The position numbers and the translations under genes are program-made. A stretch of DNA of 41,902 nucleotides from Deinococcus sp. Its GTDB lineage: Bacteria > Deinococcota > Deinococci > Deinococcales > Deinococcaceae. Positions 6,359 to 13,224 of this stretch are shown here, piece by piece; the stretch's first letter is position 1, and every line of letters begins with the position of its first letter. The notes below the pieces were generated by a model. That model saw only the letters and a program-made list of their open reading frames with translations. It ran no database searches and was not told where the DNA came from. The stretch is taken from NCBI GenBank assembly GCA_025351205.1, contig JANXWI010000095.1, forward strand, positions 1 to 41,902, written 5' to 3'.

Positions 6359-7584
6359 TCAGTTGCCGCCCAGCGCGTCGAGCAGGCCCAGAGCTTCGAG
6401 CAGCCGGTCCGCATGCACCCGGATGGCCGCCCGCAGCTGCTGGGCCTCGAACTGCACGCGGGCCAGCGACAGCGGATCGCCGCCAGCGCTGCTGAGCTGC
6501 GACACTCGGCGTTCGAGTTCTTGTGAGCGTGTCCGCAGCTGCGAGAACTGCATCTGGTGCTGGCGGGCGGTGTTGAGCGTGTCTTGCAGCAGATGCGCGG
6601 CCTCCTTCTCGACCTGGGCCAGCGCCTCCTGGGCCTCGCGCACCTTGGGGTCGGTGCTGGCGCTGTCTCCGGCCTGCCACTCGGCGTAGTTCAGGGTGTG
6701 ACGGGCGCGCAGCACGTTGGGGTGCAGCTGCACGCTGATGTTCAGGCGCTGCGCCTCCAGGTCGATCTCGGGCACCAGCGGGGCCACGTCGGCGGCCTGT
6801 TCGTCGGCCAGCGGCGCGAACACCGTCAGGAAGGCCCTGGTCTGGGTGAGCATCAGGCGGTTGTGGGCCAGCTGCGTGGACATGGAGGTGTTGCCCGGCC
6901 CGGCGCTCGGCTGGGTGCCGCGCCTGCGCGCCGCGTCGCTGAACTTCTGTTCGCCCTCCAGCTCGCGCACCGTCAGGTCGAGCAGCCGCTCCTGGGCGCG
7001 GGCGCTGCGCACCTGTTCGGCCATCTCGGCGCGGGCGTGCTCGGCCCGCATGCTGCTCAGGCGGTCCTCGGCCTCCCAGCGGCGCAGTTCGGCGTGGGTG
7101 GCCTGCACGTCCCACTCGGCGGCGCGCTCCAGCCCGCCCAGTTCGGGCGTGACCCGCACGGCGTCCAGAGACCGCAGGGCCGTTTCGTTGTGGACCCGCG
7201 CCAGCAGCAGCGGCAGGTCATGGGCGCGGCGTCCCCACCGCACCGGGGCACGCACCGGCTCCAGCGTTTCGGGCGTGACCGGAGCCGGGGCAGACTGCAT
7301 GAACACCGACAGCGACTGGGTGGCCGACTCCAGCCACTTGTCGGCGCGGGCGTCTCCCAGGTCCTCACGCAGGTGGCCGTACATGTCCTGAAGCACGGCC
7401 ACCACCTCGCGCGGCCCGAAGCGCTGCATGGCGGGCCAGTTCCTGCGGATCACGGCGGCCTGCACCAGCTGATCGGCGCGGCGCTCGCCCATTTCGGGTG
7501 TCAGGGTCTGCCGCAGCCAGTCGCGGTAGGGGTCGCTGCCCAGCCCCGACACGCCGCCTCCGGGCTTGCCCCGTCCAGCGCCGC

Positions 7585-7588
<4 letters not shown>
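6359..7588 (-). CDS. Hypothetical helical/coiled-coil protein (about 409 aa)
   Basis: GTG start overlaps the upstream methyltransferase stop (GTGA); host-like codon usage; A/E/Q/R/L-rich. Confidence 0.75.
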
Positions 7589-8451
<863 letters not shown>

Positions 8452-8516
8452 TGCGTCCCATTATGGCCGGGCCGCCATACAAAAGACCATCAGGCAGGCG
8501 GCCACCACGGAACGGA

Positions 8517-8554
8517 CAGCCCAGTACAGACCAATCCAGTGCAGACCAGCCCAG
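8517..8554. repeat. 15-bp imperfect tandem repeat in the divergent promoter region
   Basis: cagcccagtacagac / caatccagtgcagac / cagcccag. Confidence 0.75.
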
Positions 8555-8648
8555 CTCGGTGCAACCTGAACCGGTCCAGAATTCTGTCAGCGGCGCTCTG
8601 CTACCCTGAGCTACCTGCCGCTCGCTTTTTCTGTGCGGCTCACCGAAC

Positions 8649-9002
8649 ATGACCCGACCCGACCCGACTCTCCGTGCTTCACAGACGCGCTTTCAGGCCC
8701 TCTGGGCGCACGCGCTGGCGTCTCTGCTGCTGTCGCTGGCGGGGCTGCTGCTGGGCTGGCAGCTGAGTGAGTCGGGCCATTCGCGTCTGGCGTCGGCCAG
8801 TCAGACCGCCCCGGTGCTGCCGGAACTGCGCCCCGCCCCGGCACCGCAGAGCGCCGTGCAGGGCCTGGGGACCCTGACCGAGACGCCGTTTGCCGCGCCC
8901 CAATCCGGCTGGACGACACCTTCGTTGCCCATCGGCCCCGCCGTTCATCTGGCGTCCACCGACCTGACACTGCTGGGCCGCCTGAACCTCGATGGCGGCT
9001 GA
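8649..9002 (+). CDS. Small single-TM protein upstream of secDF (candidate arrest/monitoring peptide)
   Basis: 117 aa; hydrophobic segment at about residues 16-38; Pro/Ala-rich linker; ends LTLLGRLNLDGG; co-directional, 116 nt before secDF. Confidence 0.75.
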   Translation: MTRPDPTLRASQTRFQALWAHALASLLLSLAGLLLGWQLSESGHSRLASASQTAPVLPELRPAPAPQSAVQGLGTLTETPFAAPQSGWTTPSLPIGPAVHLASTDLTLLGRLNLDGG

Positions 9003-9118
9003 CCTCGGCGGCGGCTGAACAGGCATGACCGCTGAACCCTGGCGGTGTCCCCAGCCTGACGCTGACCCACGCACGGCTGTTCCTGTACCCACTTCCCACG
9101 CTCAGAACCGGAGTTTCC

Positions 9119-11401
9119 ATGTCGTTAATGAACCCCAACCAGAGGCGCAAACCCGCGCCCAAGCGCAAGGCGCCGCCCTCAAAAATTTCTCCGACCACCT
9201 CGGTCATGCTGCTCGCCGTGCTGCTGCTCTCGCTGCTGTTCGTGTGGCGGCCCTGGGAACACAGGCAGAACCTCTGGACTTTAAACAGCAGCGATTACCA
9301 GTTCGTCACCCTCGGTCTGGATCTGCGCGGTGGCCTGCGAATCGCGCTGTCGCCGGAAAGCGGCACGGCCAGCCGAGACCAGCTCGATCAGGTCAAGACC
9401 ATCATTGAAAACCGGATCAACTCGCTGGGCGTGACCGAACCCACCGTGACCGTGGCGGGCAACCGGCGGGTGGTGGTCGAGATTCCGGGGGCCACGCCCG
9501 CTCAGCAGGACCGCGCCCGCAGCATCATCCAGCAGCAGGCCAAGCTGGAATTCAGGATCGTGAACACGGCGGCCAAGCCGGGCGCCGCCGCCCGCGCCAA
9601 GAACCCCGACTCGGGCGGCTACGCCCTGAGCGACCTCGGGCCGGTGCAGGCCACCGGAGAAGTCGTCTCGAACGCCACTGCCGGAACCGACCAGGGCGGG
9701 CGCTGGATCGTGCAGGTGACCAACAACGCCAAGGGGGCCGACAGTTTCGGCAAGTTCACCGGCCAGAATGTGGGCCGCCTGATGGCCATCGTGCTCGACA
9801 ACCAGATCAAGAGTGTGGCGACCATCCAGTCGGCTCTGTACAACAACTTCCAGATCTCGGGCAGCTTCACGCAGGAACAGGCCAGTCAGCTGGGGCTGGT
9901 CCTGAAGTCGGGCAGCCTGCCGATCAAGATCAAGATCGACGAGGAACGCGCCATCGGGCCGAGCCTGGGCGCAGACGCCATCAGGAGCGGCGCGATTGCC
10001 GCCGTGGTGGGCATCACGCTGGTGTTCGTGATGCTGTTTTTCTACTACGGCCTGTGGTTCGGGCTGGTGGGCGCACTCGGGCTGCTGTTTTCCAGCGTCA
10101 TCATCCTGGGCATGCTGGGCGGCTTCGGGGCCACCCTGACGCTGCCGGGCATCGCCGGACTGGTGCTGACCATCGGCGCGGCCATCGACGGCAACGTGAT
10201 CAGCTTCGAGCGTATCAAGGAGGAGCTGAAGGCGGGCAAGGGCATCAAGAACAGCGTCCAGGCGGGCTACGAACACTCGACCATGACCATTCTGGACGTG
10301 AACGCCTCGCATCTGCTCTCGGCGCTCGCCCTGTACGCCTACGCCTCGGGGCCGGTCAAGGGCTTCGCGGTCACGCTGATCATCGGGGTGCTGGCCTCGG
10401 CCTTCAGCAACCTGGTGTTCGCCAAGTGGATGCTTCAAGTTCTCGCCCGCAGGCGCGATTTCGGTGCCCCGAAGCGTATCGGCGTGCCTAAGTACGACTA
10501 CATCAAGGTCGCCCCCATCGTGACCAGCATCTCGCTGCTGCTGGCCCTGGGCGGAGCGGTTCTGCTCGGCGTGCGCGGCCTGAACTACGGCGTGGACTTC
10601 ACCTCGGGCACCAGCATCACCGTGCGGGCCAATGCAAGCACCGACGTGGAATCGGTGCGCCGCGCCGTGACCGGGGCCGGAATATCGAGCGTCACGCCGC
10701 AGAACTCGACCATCCAGCGCAGCCTGACGCCGGGCATCGCCGGGGCGCAGTACACCGTCAAGGTGCCGCAGCTGAGCGACACCCAGATCAAGGCCATCAC
10801 CGCGAAGGTGATTGCGCTGCCCGGCGGGCAGGTGCAGCAGACCGAGACCGTGGGACCGGCGGTGGGTCAGGAGCTGACCACCCAGACCATCTACGCCGTT
10901 CTCCTGGGCCTGACGCTCATTCTGGCGTACGTCTGGTTCAGGTTCGATCTGGTGACGGGGGCGGGTTCGGTGTTCGCGGTGTTTCACGACGTCGCCATCG
11001 TGATGGGCCTGTACAGCCTGCTGCACCTTGAGTTCAGCATCGCCACGGTGGCCGCCGTCCTCACGGTGATCGGCTACTCGCTCAACGACTCGATCATCGT
11101 CTCAGACCGCATCCGCGAGAACCACAAGGTGATGCGCGGCCAGAGTTCGCGCAAAATCGTCAACGGCAGCATCAACCAGACGCTGTCGCGCACCGTCATG
11201 ACCTCGGTGTGTACCCTGCTGCCGCTGTTCGCCCTGCTGATCTTCGGCGGCCCGGTGCTGCGCGACTTTTCCATCGCCATGATCGTGGGCATCGTGGTCG
11301 GCACGTACAGCAGCATCTACATCGTGTCTCCGATGATCGTGTTTTTCGAGGAGCGCAACAGAGGGCAGGGCAAGGGCACGCCCGCGCCGATCAAGAGCTG
11401 A
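9119..11401 (+). CDS. secDF: Fused protein translocase subunit SecDF
   Basis: LGLDLRGG, IGPSLG, DGNVISFERIKEE, GVDFTSG, GYSLNDSIIVSDRIRE and GTYSSIY. Confidence 0.97.
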   Translation: MSLMNPNQRRKPAPKRKAPPSKISPTTSVMLLAVLLLSLLFVWRPWEHRQNLWTLNSSDYQFVTLGLDLRGGLRIALSPESGTASRDQLDQVKTIIENRINSLGVTEPTVTVAGNRRVVVEIPGATPAQQDRARSIIQQQAKLEFRIVNTAAKPGAAARAKNPDSGGYALSDLGPVQATGEVVSNATAGTDQGGRWIVQVTNNAKGADSFGKFTGQNVGRLMAIVLDNQIKSVATIQSALYNNFQISGSFTQEQASQLGLVLKSGSLPIKIKIDEERAIGPSLGADAIRSGAIAAVVGITLVFVMLFFYYGLWFGLVGALGLLFSSVIILGMLGGFGATLTLPGIAGLVLTIGAAIDGNVISFERIKEELKAGKGIKNSVQAGYEHSTMTILDVNASHLLSALALYAYASGPVKGFAVTLIIGVLASAFSNLVFAKWMLQVLARRRDFGAPKRIGVPKYDYIKVAPIVTSISLLLALGGAVLLGVRGLNYGVDFTSGTSITVRANASTDVESVRRAVTGAGISSVTPQNSTIQRSLTPGIAGAQYTVKVPQLSDTQIKAITAKVIALPGGQVQQTETVGPAVGQELTTQTIYAVLLGLTLILAYVWFRFDLVTGAGSVFAVFHDVAIVMGLYSLLHLEFSIATVAAVLTVIGYSLNDSIIVSDRIRENHKVMRGQSSRKIVNGSINQTLSRTVMTSVCTLLPLFALLIFGGPVLRDFSIAMIVGIVVGTYSSIYIVSPMIVFFEERNRGQGKGTPAPIKS

Positions 11402-11464: not shown

Positions 11465-11495
11465 GGAGGCCCCCCGTCACCGTGCGGGGGTTTCT
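11465..11495 (+). terminator. Probable intrinsic terminator after secDF
   Basis: GGAGGCCCCCCG...CGGGGGTTTCT hairpin. Confidence 0.65.
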
Positions 11496-11623: not shown

Positions 11624-11781
11624 GCCATTCATTCAGAGGGGGCAAGATGTAGGCGGCATCACAAATACGCCGCGCATCCGGCCCACCGATGTTCACCCGC
11701 ACATGTTCGTGATCCGCCGGGCCTTCCGGACAAAACGCCTGGAAAGGTTGGGCGCTTTCAGATCACGCTTTGGAGAATTCT

Positions 11782-13224
11782 GTGATTCGAGCCTCTCTCG
11801 CCGCCGCTGTTCCGTCTGCTCCGCGCACGACCTCCTCCGTTCTGCTGCTCAGCCTGGGCCTGCTGTTTGCGCTGCCACACTCGCAGGCCAGTCCGGTGCA
11901 GGGCAATCCGGCCCAGATGCCTCAGTCGCTGCTGGAAAGCAGATTGCCTGCGGTGGTGTTGGGGCTTCCCGCGCAGATCACACTGAACCGGAGCGAAGCT
12001 GTGTCTGGTGAAGCTCTGCCCAGTGCGGCCCTGGTGTTGGCGCGTTCAGGCGACACCGGGCAGGAGATTGCCGACAGCTACGACGTGCCGCTCTCGGCGC
12101 TGTCGCCCAGCCAGCCGGGAACGCTGCCCTGGGGCGCGGTGATCCGGGTGTCTCTGCAAGGTGCGGCCCAGCCCGCAGAGGGCCGCCTGCCACCCGGCGC
12201 GAAGGTGTACACGGCGCGTTCCGGCGACACGCTGGCGGGCGTCGCCTACCGCCAGGGGCTGAGCGTCACCGAGCTGCTGAGCGCCAACCTGAGCCGTCAG
12301 ACGCTCGACAAGCTGGCTGTGGGTGAGCGCCTCTTCGTTCCGTCCCAGCCGGGCCTGATGGTCCGGATCAAGCCGGGGGAAACCGTGCAGGGCCTGGTCG
12401 AGTCGTACCGCGCCGACGCGCCGCAGGTTGCGCTGGCCAACGGCATCGGCCTGCCGAACGAGCTTGGCGTGGGCGATTATCTGCTGCTGCCGGGCGTGCT
12501 GGCGACGGGCTTCCAGCGCGAGCTGTTGGCCCGCCGGGAGCGTCAGCAGGAGGCTGCGCGGCTGGTCGGGGTGCAGCGCCAGTACGAGCGCTATCAGGCA
12601 TATGTTCAACAGGTGCAGGACAGCAGACTCAGGCGCCAGTACGCCCTTCAGGCCCAGTACGACAGATTTCTGGCCTACCAGAACAGCCCGGCCCGCCAGA
12701 AGCTGATCGCCCGCTACGAGGCGCAGGCCCGCTACGACGCCGCGCAGCAGACCCAGCAGGCACAGGCGCGCGCCCAGGCGAAAGTGCTGGCCGGCGTTCC
12801 GCGCGGTGTGGGCAGCGTGCGCTCTGCATCTGCGGCGTCGGAAGGTGGCGGGCTGTCGTGGCCCCTGCGCAGCTACCGCATCACCAGCCGCTTCGGAGAA
12901 GCAGACATCGAGTTTCACCGGCAGTATTTCCACGGCGGGGTGGACCTGGCCGCGCCCTACGGCACTCCGATCTATGCCGCCGCCGCCGGCACCATCACCC
13001 AGAGCGGCCCCGGCGACTACGGCAACAACGTCTACACCGACACTGGAGACGCCCTGATCATCTACGGCCACATGAGCCGCACCGCTGTGAGCGTGGGCCA
13101 GACGGTTACGCGCGGCGAGGTGCTGGGCTACGTCGGCTGCTCGGGCATGTGTACCGGGCCGCACCTGCATTTCGAGGTCAGGCTGAACGGGAGCGCCGTC
13201 GATCCGCTGGGCCTGCTGCCCTGA
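11782..13224 (+). CDS. LysM-domain M23 peptidase (cell-wall endopeptidase)
   Basis: LysM repeats (YTARSGDTLAGVA), Q/Y/A-rich helical linker, HGGVDLAAP and GPHLHFEV; GGAG RBS before GTG 11782. Confidence 0.92.
   Translation: MIRASLAAAVPSAPRTTSSVLLLSLGLLFALPHSQASPVQGNPAQMPQSLLESRLPAVVLGLPAQITLNRSEAVSGEALPSAALVLARSGDTGQEIADSYDVPLSALSPSQPGTLPWGAVIRVSLQGAAQPAEGRLPPGAKVYTARSGDTLAGVAYRQGLSVTELLSANLSRQTLDKLAVGERLFVPSQPGLMVRIKPGETVQGLVESYRADAPQVALANGIGLPNELGVGDYLLLPGVLATGFQRELLARRERQQEAARLVGVQRQYERYQAYVQQVQDSRLRRQYALQAQYDRFLAYQNSPARQKLIARYEAQARYDAAQQTQQAQARAQAKVLAGVPRGVGSVRSASAASEGGGLSWPLRSYRITSRFGEADIEFHRQYFHGGVDLAAPYGTPIYAAAAGTITQSGPGDYGNNVYTDTGDALIIYGHMSRTAVSVGQTVTRGEVLGYVGCSGMCTGPHLHFEVRLNGSAVDPLGLLP

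What the first reader, a model, noticed from the sequence alone, without database searches (positions are those of the whole stretch)
8649..9121. Candidate new ribosome-arrest 'monitoring substrate' upstream of secDF, ending LGRLNLDGG-stop
Seen: a 117-aa ORF on the same strand, 116 nt upstream of secDF, with no obvious intrinsic terminator between them. It has a basic N-terminus, one hydrophobic TM/signal segment (about residues 16-38), a low-complexity Pro/Ala/Ser linker of about 65 aa with no recognisable fold, and a compact tail TDLTLLGRLNLDGG. A GCCGCC/GGCGGC hairpin covers the last codons. The spacer is C-rich, and a weak ACTTC/GGAGT pairing could cover the secDF RBS. Known: SecM (secA), MifM (yidC2), VemP (secDF2) and ApdA/ApdP (secDF) share this layout of localization signal, spacer longer than the exit tunnel and C-terminal arrest motif, and they feedback-control the downstream translocase gene. 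Inference: this ORF may be a Deinococcota equivalent. It has no RAPP/RAGP-type motif, so any arrest chemistry would differ, possibly acting at termination.
Basis: partly seen in the sequence, partly recalled or inferred. Interest (0 to 1): 0.85.

Follow-up and report, generated by a model that had tools for sequence, protein, structure and literature searches.

The report
Phylum-wide stalling-type leader before secDF
A small membrane-targeted gene sits just before the protein-export gene secDF in nearly all Deinococcus-Thermus bacteria examined and keeps the same last few amino acids right at its stop codon, so it is likely a new kind of ribosome-stalling sensor of protein export, although stalling is untested and the usual RNA switch is not predicted.

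Summary
The 117-aa ORF (8649-9002) is a real, conserved gene. It lies upstream of secDF in 109 of 109 same-genus genomes with a secDF match and, with its tail at the stop, in 42 of 50 secDF loci from other genera, spanning all five families of the phylum. Members keep one hydrophobic segment, a fixed spacing to the C-terminus (86-97 aa) and the tail L-x-x-L-G-R-x-Q/N-L/T-D/E-G-G-stop (penultimate-position Gly in 176 of 176; tail dN/dS 0.11 vs linker 0.47). A conserved extended -10 box precedes the ORF and almost never the spacer. It shows no similarity to YajC and matches no Pfam/NCBIfam family; the paper searches run found nothing on it. Best reading (0.7): a new secretion-monitoring arrest peptide, probably stalling at or one codon before its stop, closest to uDF_DGMK-stop and LudP but in a different register. 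Stalling and regulation are untested. This scan reported the same family before on other DNA.

The parts
8599..8607 (+). Extended -10 promoter-like box TGCTACCCT (TGnTAnnnT), predicted promoter of the uORF-secDF unit
   Evidence: the motif lies 300-470 nt before the stop in 107 of 173 homologues, in 3 of 173 within the last 300 nt of the ORF and in 3 of 139 spacers. Not mapped experimentally.
8649..9002 (+). uORF, 117 aa, candidate secretion-monitoring arrest peptide; single copy in the genome
8700..8762 (+). Hydrophobic signal/anchor segment (about residues 18-38), basic flank on the N-terminal side (N-in orientation predicted)
   Evidence: (dN/dS 0.25)
8811..8831 (+). P-x-L-P-E-L-R motif (residues 55-61), conserved in Deinococcus and most other genera of its family, 56 residues before the C-terminus
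   Evidence: P58 98%, E59 95%, R61 93%; dN/dS 0.15 for residues 56-64
8958..9002 (+). Conserved tail TDLTLLGRLNLDGG plus stop; family consensus L-x-x-L-G-R-x-(Q/N)-(L/T)-(D/E)-G-G-stop
   Evidence: Gly at -2 in 176/176, R/K at -7 in 166/176, D/E at -3 in 175/176; dN/dS 0.11
9003..9118 (+). 116-nt spacer, G-poor and C/U-rich near the Shine-Dalgarno GGAG (9110-9113); predicted open, not a sequestering stem
9119..11401 (+). secDF, fused SecD-SecF, 760 aa; one match per genome in almost all relatives

Best explanation
The ORF is a conserved leader gene of secDF whose peptide likely stalls its own ribosome at or just before its stop codon until the Sec machinery pulls it free, and would thereby tune SecDF output to export capacity. 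Shown: the gene, its phylum-wide position, protein-level selection on the tail, the fixed distance from hydrophobic segment to tail, one promoter motif upstream of the pair, and sense RNA reads running across the stop into secDF in one relative. Inferred: (1) the hydrophobic segment targets the ribosome to SecYEG with the N-terminus inside; (2) the last 13 residues, partly helical, bind the exit tunnel and block peptide release, either with the stop in the A site or with the invariant Gly in the P site and Gly/Ala/stop in the A site; (3) the 86-97 aa spacing lets a short loop reach the far side of the membrane, where SecDF would pull, and the PxLPELR motif may set that dependence as Arg-85 does in VemP; (4) coupling to secDF is probably not by an SD-hiding hairpin. 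More likely the parked ribosome keeps the C/U-rich spacer from Rho or keeps it open as a 30S landing site; the spacer was never shorter than 50 nt, roughly room for a parked ribosome plus an initiating subunit.
For: Synteny: 109 of 109 genus genomes with a secDF match; 42 of 50 secDF-selected loci in other genera. The ORF stays with secDF although the gene further upstream differs (infB in Thermus-like and other lineages, a divergent SpoU methylase gene here). All 15 of 51 collection-wide pattern hits that are followed by secDF are hydrophobic-segment ORFs ending at the motif: 11 are named Deinococcota and 4 are unnamed bacteria. Tail conserved as protein: wobble positions vary, all three stops are used (TGA 92, TAG 58, TAA 26 of 176), dN/dS 0.11 vs 0.47 in the linker over 45 disjoint pairs. 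Centre of hydrophobic segment to C-terminus 86-97 aa (5th-95th percentile, n=173) despite 21% mean column identity. 62 of 68 library hits end in D/E-G-G, D/E-G-A or D/E-G. Precedent: secDF uORFs that stall at their stop (uDF_NAP-stop, uDF_DGMK-stop) and LudP with an essential Asp in DGEK. Rho present in 5 of 5 genomes tested. The 25 nt before the SD are 75% C/U on average (n=123) against a 95th percentile of 72% for 774 SD-bearing genes of this genome.
Against: No stalling data of any kind. No conserved RNA switch: masking the ribosome footprint changes RBS opening energy by a median of 0.1-0.2 kcal/mol (n=142); SD accessibility does not rise; footprint-spacer pairing is no better than shuffled or swapped partners (z -0.2, -0.1) and anti-SD pairing is weaker than shuffled (z +0.67). 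The Asp is at -3 (or -2) from the stop, not at -4 as in DGMK-stop and LudP; in CliM a penultimate Gly relieves termination arrest, so known chemistries do not transfer. The motif is not depleted inside this genome's proteins (small counts). 6 of 50 non-genus loci lack it and 2 read through the motif for about 25-30 more residues. In this window the tract before the SD is only 64% C/U. RNA-seq in G053 shows 5-10 times fewer reads over the 5' part of the ORF than over its 3' end and secDF, which an internal start could explain, though coverage follows GC content.
Confidence: 0.7

Rival explanations
1. It is a small accessory subunit of SecDF that acts in trans, standing in for YajC: the hydrophobic segment packs on SecDF/SecYEG and the conserved tail binds a partner such as the P1 head.
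For: It occupies the position yajC has before secD in E. coli, has the same size and one membrane segment, and no YajC above the Pfam cut-off was found in 41 Deinococcota genomes. No RNA switch was found.
Against: No sequence relation to YajC: 0 of 61 members hit PF02699; profile versus E. coli YajC probability 0.3%. Opposite charge asymmetry: the basic flank is before the segment in 80% of 173 members and after it in 2%, whereas in YajC it follows the segment. No folded domain. Conservation peaks in the last 13 residues, ending at the stop.
Confidence: 0.13
2. The free C-terminal Gly-Gly is the functional group: a ubiquitin-like conjugation tag, or a handle by which an inner-membrane tether of fixed length is linked to the cell wall (Deinococcus and Thermus peptidoglycan has Gly-Gly bridges; recalled, not checked here).
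For: The stop follows the motif at once in nearly all members; terminal Gly in 170 of 176; L-x-L-x-G-G in Thermus-type members resembles ubiquitin-type tails (recalled); the spacing is fixed.
Against: No beta-grasp or other fold; Ala or Cys ends in 6 of 176 and single-Gly ends in 4; predicted N-in orientation would put the tail outside the cytoplasm, away from ATP-dependent activation; the constant neighbour is secDF, not an E1-like enzyme or transpeptidase.
Confidence: 0.05
3. It is an arrest peptide of the classical SecM/MifM/CliM design after all, with species-specific SD-hiding stems that equilibrium folding of these GC-rich RNAs fails to predict; or the stall serves only to hold the secDF mRNA at the translocon or to stabilise it.
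For: Long hairpins from the last codons to near the SD appear in single predictions for several homologues, more often in Thermus-like families (z about -1 in two families). The tract before the SD becomes more open when the footprint is masked (0.48 to 0.63 unpaired, control 0.40 to 0.45).
Against: The effect is explained by base composition (shuffle and swap controls) and is absent in this window.
Confidence: 0.12

Closest known systems
uDF_DGMK-stop (Bacillota; Fujiwara et al. 2024, PMC10987492; passages and methods section read)
   Same: Small uORF before secDF with an N-terminal localization signal, a proline-free tail containing Asp-Gly, and a stop codon directly after the motif; shown there to stall with the stop most likely in the A site.
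   Different: Six sequences from Bacillota versus a phylum-wide Deinococcota family; Asp at -4 versus D/E at -3; tail D-G-M-K versus R-x-Q-L/T-D/E-G-G; no direct sequence comparison was made here.
LudP (Lacrimispora; bioRxiv 10.64898/2026.10.26.761930; introduction, passages and discussion read)
   Same: Upstream of secDF, signal-dependent release, about 15-residue helical arrest element with an essential Asp followed by Gly; can also arrest at a stop.
   Different: LudP stalls in elongation with Lys136 in the P site, three residues after Asp133; this family ends two residues after its D/E, so the same register is impossible.
[quoted passage not shown]
   Same: Arrest at the termination step of a localization-gene uORF.
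   Different: NAP/NSP end in Pro; CliM uses a bulky penultimate Leu, and Gly there relieves arrest, whereas here that position is an invariant Gly; CliM controls yidC through a demonstrated stem-loop.
VemP (Vibrio; PMC7793623, passages)
   Same: Monitors SecDF-dependent pulling upstream of secDF; has a conserved Arg outside the ribosome that sets SecDF/PpiD dependence, comparable in idea to PxLPELR.
   Different: Elongation arrest, cleaved signal peptide, controls a second secDF paralogue; here secDF is single-copy in almost all genomes and no cleavage was tested.
TnaC (E. coli; search listings only, rest recalled)
   Same: Stall at a stop codon coupled to the downstream gene through Rho rather than an SD hairpin, the coupling proposed here.
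   Different: Senses tryptophan, 24 aa, no export signal; no Rho dependence has been shown for this locus.
YajC (PF02699)
   Same: About 110 aa, one membrane segment, gene directly before secD.
   Different: No detectable similarity, opposite charge asymmetry, no folded cytoplasmic domain.

Membership tests
Sec/YidC monitoring substrates (criteria of Fujiwara et al. 2024) | Small uORF of unknown function directly upstream of a sec/yidC gene, same strand | tested here: met
Sec/YidC monitoring substrates | N-terminal signal or transmembrane segment | tested here: met
   Hydropathy peak (median 2.2-2.5 per family) with basic N-flank; helix 13-41. SignalP-type cleavage prediction not available.
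Sec/YidC monitoring substrates | C-terminal motif conserved among homologues | tested here: met
Sec/YidC monitoring substrates | Spacer over 30 aa between signal and motif end | tested here: met
   81-116 aa from segment centre to C-terminus, n=173
Sec/YidC monitoring substrates | Motif-dependent ribosome arrest | not testable with these tools
   No ribosome-profiling run was offered; needs toeprinting or a peptidyl-tRNA assay
Sec/YidC monitoring substrates | Arrest released by translocation | not testable with these tools
   needs signal-deletion and SecDF-depletion experiments
SecM/MifM/VemP/CliM type | Stem-loop that hides the downstream SD and is opened by the stalled ribosome | tested here: not met
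   Predicted folding only:
Sec/YidC monitoring substrates | Co-transcription with the downstream gene | tested here: inconclusive
   Sense reads continuous from the ORF's last third across stop and spacer into secDF in G053 (2 runs, 1 study), but a zero-coverage GC-rich gap splits the ORF; promoter motif upstream only
RQH/RAPP family (SecM, ApcA, ApdA, ApdP) | (R/Q/H)-(A/G/D)-(P/G/S)-(P/G) at the arrest site | tested here: not met
   D-G-G fits positions 2-4, but position 1 is L/T/S, never R/Q/H among the top residues (motif)
uDF_DGMK-stop / LudP | D-G-x-K with Asp three residues before the P-site Lys | tested here: not met
   The family ends D/E-G-G-stop or E-G-stop (definitions)
YajC | PF02699 match; basic residues after the membrane segment; folded C-terminal domain | tested here: not met
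Ubiquitin-like modifiers / sulfur carriers | Beta-grasp fold with C-terminal Gly-Gly | tested here: not met
   GG present in 166 of 176, but no fold predicted and no Pfam hit

The most novel reading that the evidence does not exclude
An ancient, phylum-wide secretion monitor with a new proline-free chemistry (R-x-Q-L/T-D/E-G-G) that blocks peptide release at its own stop, reads SecDF pulling through a fixed-length molecular ruler, and controls the cell's only secDF by a TnaC-like Rho or landing-site mechanism instead of an SD hairpin. It would be a native force-sensing arrest peptide for Thermus and Deinococcus, the organisms whose ribosomes and SecDF are structural workhorses.
Probability: 0.3. 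Interest if true: 0.88.

Novelty: new variant of a known kind. Interest (0 to 1): 0.72.

Why it matters
Known Sec/YidC arrest peptides are patchy and mostly narrow in range; the 2024 survey of 30,175 genomes names none from this phylum in its text. This family is nearly universal in Deinococcota and has a motif unlike any described, so it would add a new arrest chemistry and probably a new way of coupling a stall to the downstream gene. Thermus and Deinococcus ribosomes and SecDF are standard structural systems (recalled), so force-dependent release by SecDF could be studied with all-native parts. Many members begin with a TTG codon a few bases after the -10 box, which may explain why annotation-based screens missed them (inference).

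Tried and rejected
SD-sequestering switch: four computations gave no support; group p-values are not used because kin are not independent and the controls (64 gene pairs) come from one genome. YajC homology: rejected; the two weak N-terminal YajC hits are not next to secDF. Paralogues in the own genome: none. Relocated copies in five genomes lacking the uORF (77-99% complete): not found with alignment A1. Members outside the phylum: none among 36 non-secDF hits of one exact pattern, which covers only the GRLQL(E/D)GG form; the 4 of 10 looked-up clusters that carried names were Deinococcota or plain 'hypothetical protein'. Depletion of the motif in the proteome: none, underpowered. ESM Atlas with homologue P0020: unnamed small-protein clusters at 0.91 and DUF2946/LpqS at 0.87-0.88 with few shared features, leads only. 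RNA-seq step inside the ORF of G053: confounded by GC content, no 5'-end pile-up at the predicted start; contigs of RNA runs X8 and X12 show presence only. Literature: no paper held 'arrest peptide'+'secDF'+'Deinococcus'; searches found none on this family; the locus tags were recalled and may be wrong. In PMC10987492, supplement 9 (a uORF table; the rows shown are secA uORFs) has no 'Deinococc', supplement 10 (row shown is a yidC uORF) was cut when stored, and MOESM1 and MOESM6, probably including the secDF table, could not be read, so a listing there is not excluded. No complex prediction or fold search was run.

Full report
Observation. The ORF, its tail and the 116-nt gap to a fused secDF are as described. 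No terminator-like site lies in the gap. The ORF matches no Pfam family, and none of 61 aligned members has a meaningful Pfam or NCBIfam hit. The window is taken to be Deinococcus because a 72% identical protein is named Deinococcus sp. and other members are named D. radiophilus, D. lacus, Meiothermus sp., Thermus scotoductus and Trueperaceae.

Distribution. I located secDF first and then read upstream, so these counts are not motif-selected. Of 111 genus genomes, 109 had a secDF match, and all 109 carry the ORF; two are cut by contig ends but show the tail. Of 50 secDF loci from other genera (40 with the best scores, fetched, plus 10 hand-picked), 42 have the ORF with the tail at the stop, 2 (G168, G169) have the motif followed by about 25-30 extra residues, 1 (G236) has a degenerate ORF, and 5 (G123, G219, G268, G281, G334) have no such ORF between infB and secDF. 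The other secDF loci were not examined. Motif-selected loci added Thermus-type and other members; every hydrophobic-segment ORF ending in the motif was followed by secDF, except one on a contig that ends too soon. A pattern scan of all GTDB species gave 51 hits; the 15 followed by secDF are such ORFs (11 named Deinococcota, 4 unnamed), and the other 36 are not followed by secDF and look like chance matches. The own genome holds one copy.

Anatomy. Over 176 members the tail reads L/F/Y(-12), L/Y/W(-9), G(-8, 133), R/K(-7, 166), Q/N(-5, 166), L/T/S(-4, 170), D/E(-3, 175), G(-2, 176), G(-1, 166; Ala 5, stop 4, Cys 1), then a stop of any type. Third codon positions vary freely. dN/dS over 45 disjoint genus pairs is 0.11 in the tail, 0.15 in PxLPELR, 0.25 in the hydrophobic segment and 0.47 in the linker, so the constraint is on the peptide. 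AlphaFold2 gives a helix at 13-41, an extended linker and a short helix at 106-111. Of 68 profile hits in the 1.84-billion library, 62 end in D/E-G-G, D/E-G-A or D/E-G.

Transcription. An extended -10 box precedes the ORF in 107 of 173 members, against 3 of 173 inside its last 300 nt and 3 of 139 spacers (the windows differ in length: 170 nt, 303 nt and 87 nt on average). In many Deinococcus members an in-frame TTG lies 8 nt after the box, fitting the short-leader mRNAs reported for D. deserti (PMC4007540, abstract start only). In two 2026 RNA runs of one study laid on G053, sense reads run unbroken from the ORF's last third across the stop into secDF (depth 130-290) with few antisense reads; the 5' part has depth 6-46, and 1151-1234 has none. 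Low coverage coincides with 79-85% GC, so this supports co-transcription of the 3' end and says nothing firm about an internal start.

RNA coupling. The spacer is 50-292 nt, median 68. Masking a ribosome at the stop barely changes RBS opening energy (median 0.1-0.2 kcal/mol, n=142) and does not free the SD. Footprint-spacer duplexes equal shuffled and swapped controls, and anti-SD pairing is weaker than shuffled (n=97). What is conserved, mainly in Deinococcus, is a G-poor, C/U-rich tract before the SD (mean 75% versus 57% in 64 control pairs; the 95th percentile of 774 genes is 72%). Rho is present in 5 of 5 genomes tested. I therefore reject the SD-hiding switch as predicted and propose Rho occlusion or an open landing site, both untested.

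Rivals. No YajC above cut-off was found in 41 phylum genomes and this gene sits where yajC does in E. coli, so an accessory-subunit role is a serious rival; but there is no similarity, the charge asymmetry is reversed and there is no folded domain. A C-terminal Gly-Gly tag or wall tether would also explain the fixed stop, but Ala, Cys and single-Gly ends, the predicted orientation and the gene context argue against it.

Comparison with known systems. Fujiwara et al. 2024 (PMC10987492: first part of the text, passages, one methods section, supplement searches) define four criteria, all met here, and describe termination-arrest uORFs before secDF (NAP-stop, DGMK-stop). Their text never mentions Deinococcus or Thermus although such genomes were screened; their screen relied on annotated genes; one large table could not be read. 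LudP uses an Asp three residues before the P-site residue; this family's D/E is two before the end, so the register differs. In CliM a penultimate Gly relieves arrest. VemP offers a precedent for a conserved Arg outside the ribosome. It therefore works like a monitoring substrate by layout, but is not a member of any named family. Searches found no paper on it.

Stall site. Invariance of Gly(-2), with Gly, Ala, Cys or a stop tolerated next, fits arrest with that Gly in the P site; the near-fixed stop fits arrest at termination. Sequence cannot decide between them.

Earlier scan notes. Eight notes on other genomes describe the same family; I had stated my reading before seeing them and do not count them as support. 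One proposes an SD-occluding stem in its genome; my family-wide test does not find one conserved.

Verdict. Real, phylum-wide and apparently undescribed in the literature searched; arrest-peptide function about 0.7 (about 0.8 with the classical-switch variant); mechanism of coupling open. Interest 0.72; new variant of a known kind.

Noticed in passing
L013, L015-L017, L019-L023, L027, L029, L030 and many of L099-L150, about 340-380 nt before the uORF stop: A conserved TGnTATGCT box followed 8 nt later by an in-frame TTG: a short-leader mRNA apparently starting at UUG, which would make the uORF weakly translated and often unannotated.
   Followed up: partly
L063 (G168), L066 (G169), L061 (G167): One genus shows the tail changing to QLEGC-stop, then losing the stop (QLEGC or QLGGC plus about 25-30 residues): natural variants for testing whether the stop is needed.
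   Followed up: no
L014, L025, L026, L089: Four Deinococcus genomes end GRWQLEG-stop, one Gly shorter; useful for fixing the stall register.
   Followed up: partly
41 genomes: No YajC above the Pfam cut-off in any Deinococcota genome searched, including the window's own (85% complete).
   Followed up: partly
L042, L053, L057, L206, L209: Scattered lineages have infB followed by secDF with no uORF, suggesting repeated loss from an ancestral infB-uORF-secDF order.
   Followed up: partly
L014:1378-1410: Short tandem repeat (CTGAGCTCTTTTCG-like, about three copies) in the uORF-secDF spacer of G053.
   Followed up: no
window 8490-8560: Several imperfect CCAGT(A/G)CAGA(C) repeats between the divergent SpoU methylase gene and the uORF promoter.
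   Followed up: no
window 6359-7783 (-): 474-aa ORF with no Pfam family above cut-off, helical-looking, downstream of the SpoU methylase gene.
   Followed up: no
window 11770-13224 (+): LysM plus M23 peptidase gene after secDF, separated by a terminator-like hairpin at 11471-11490.
   Followed up: no
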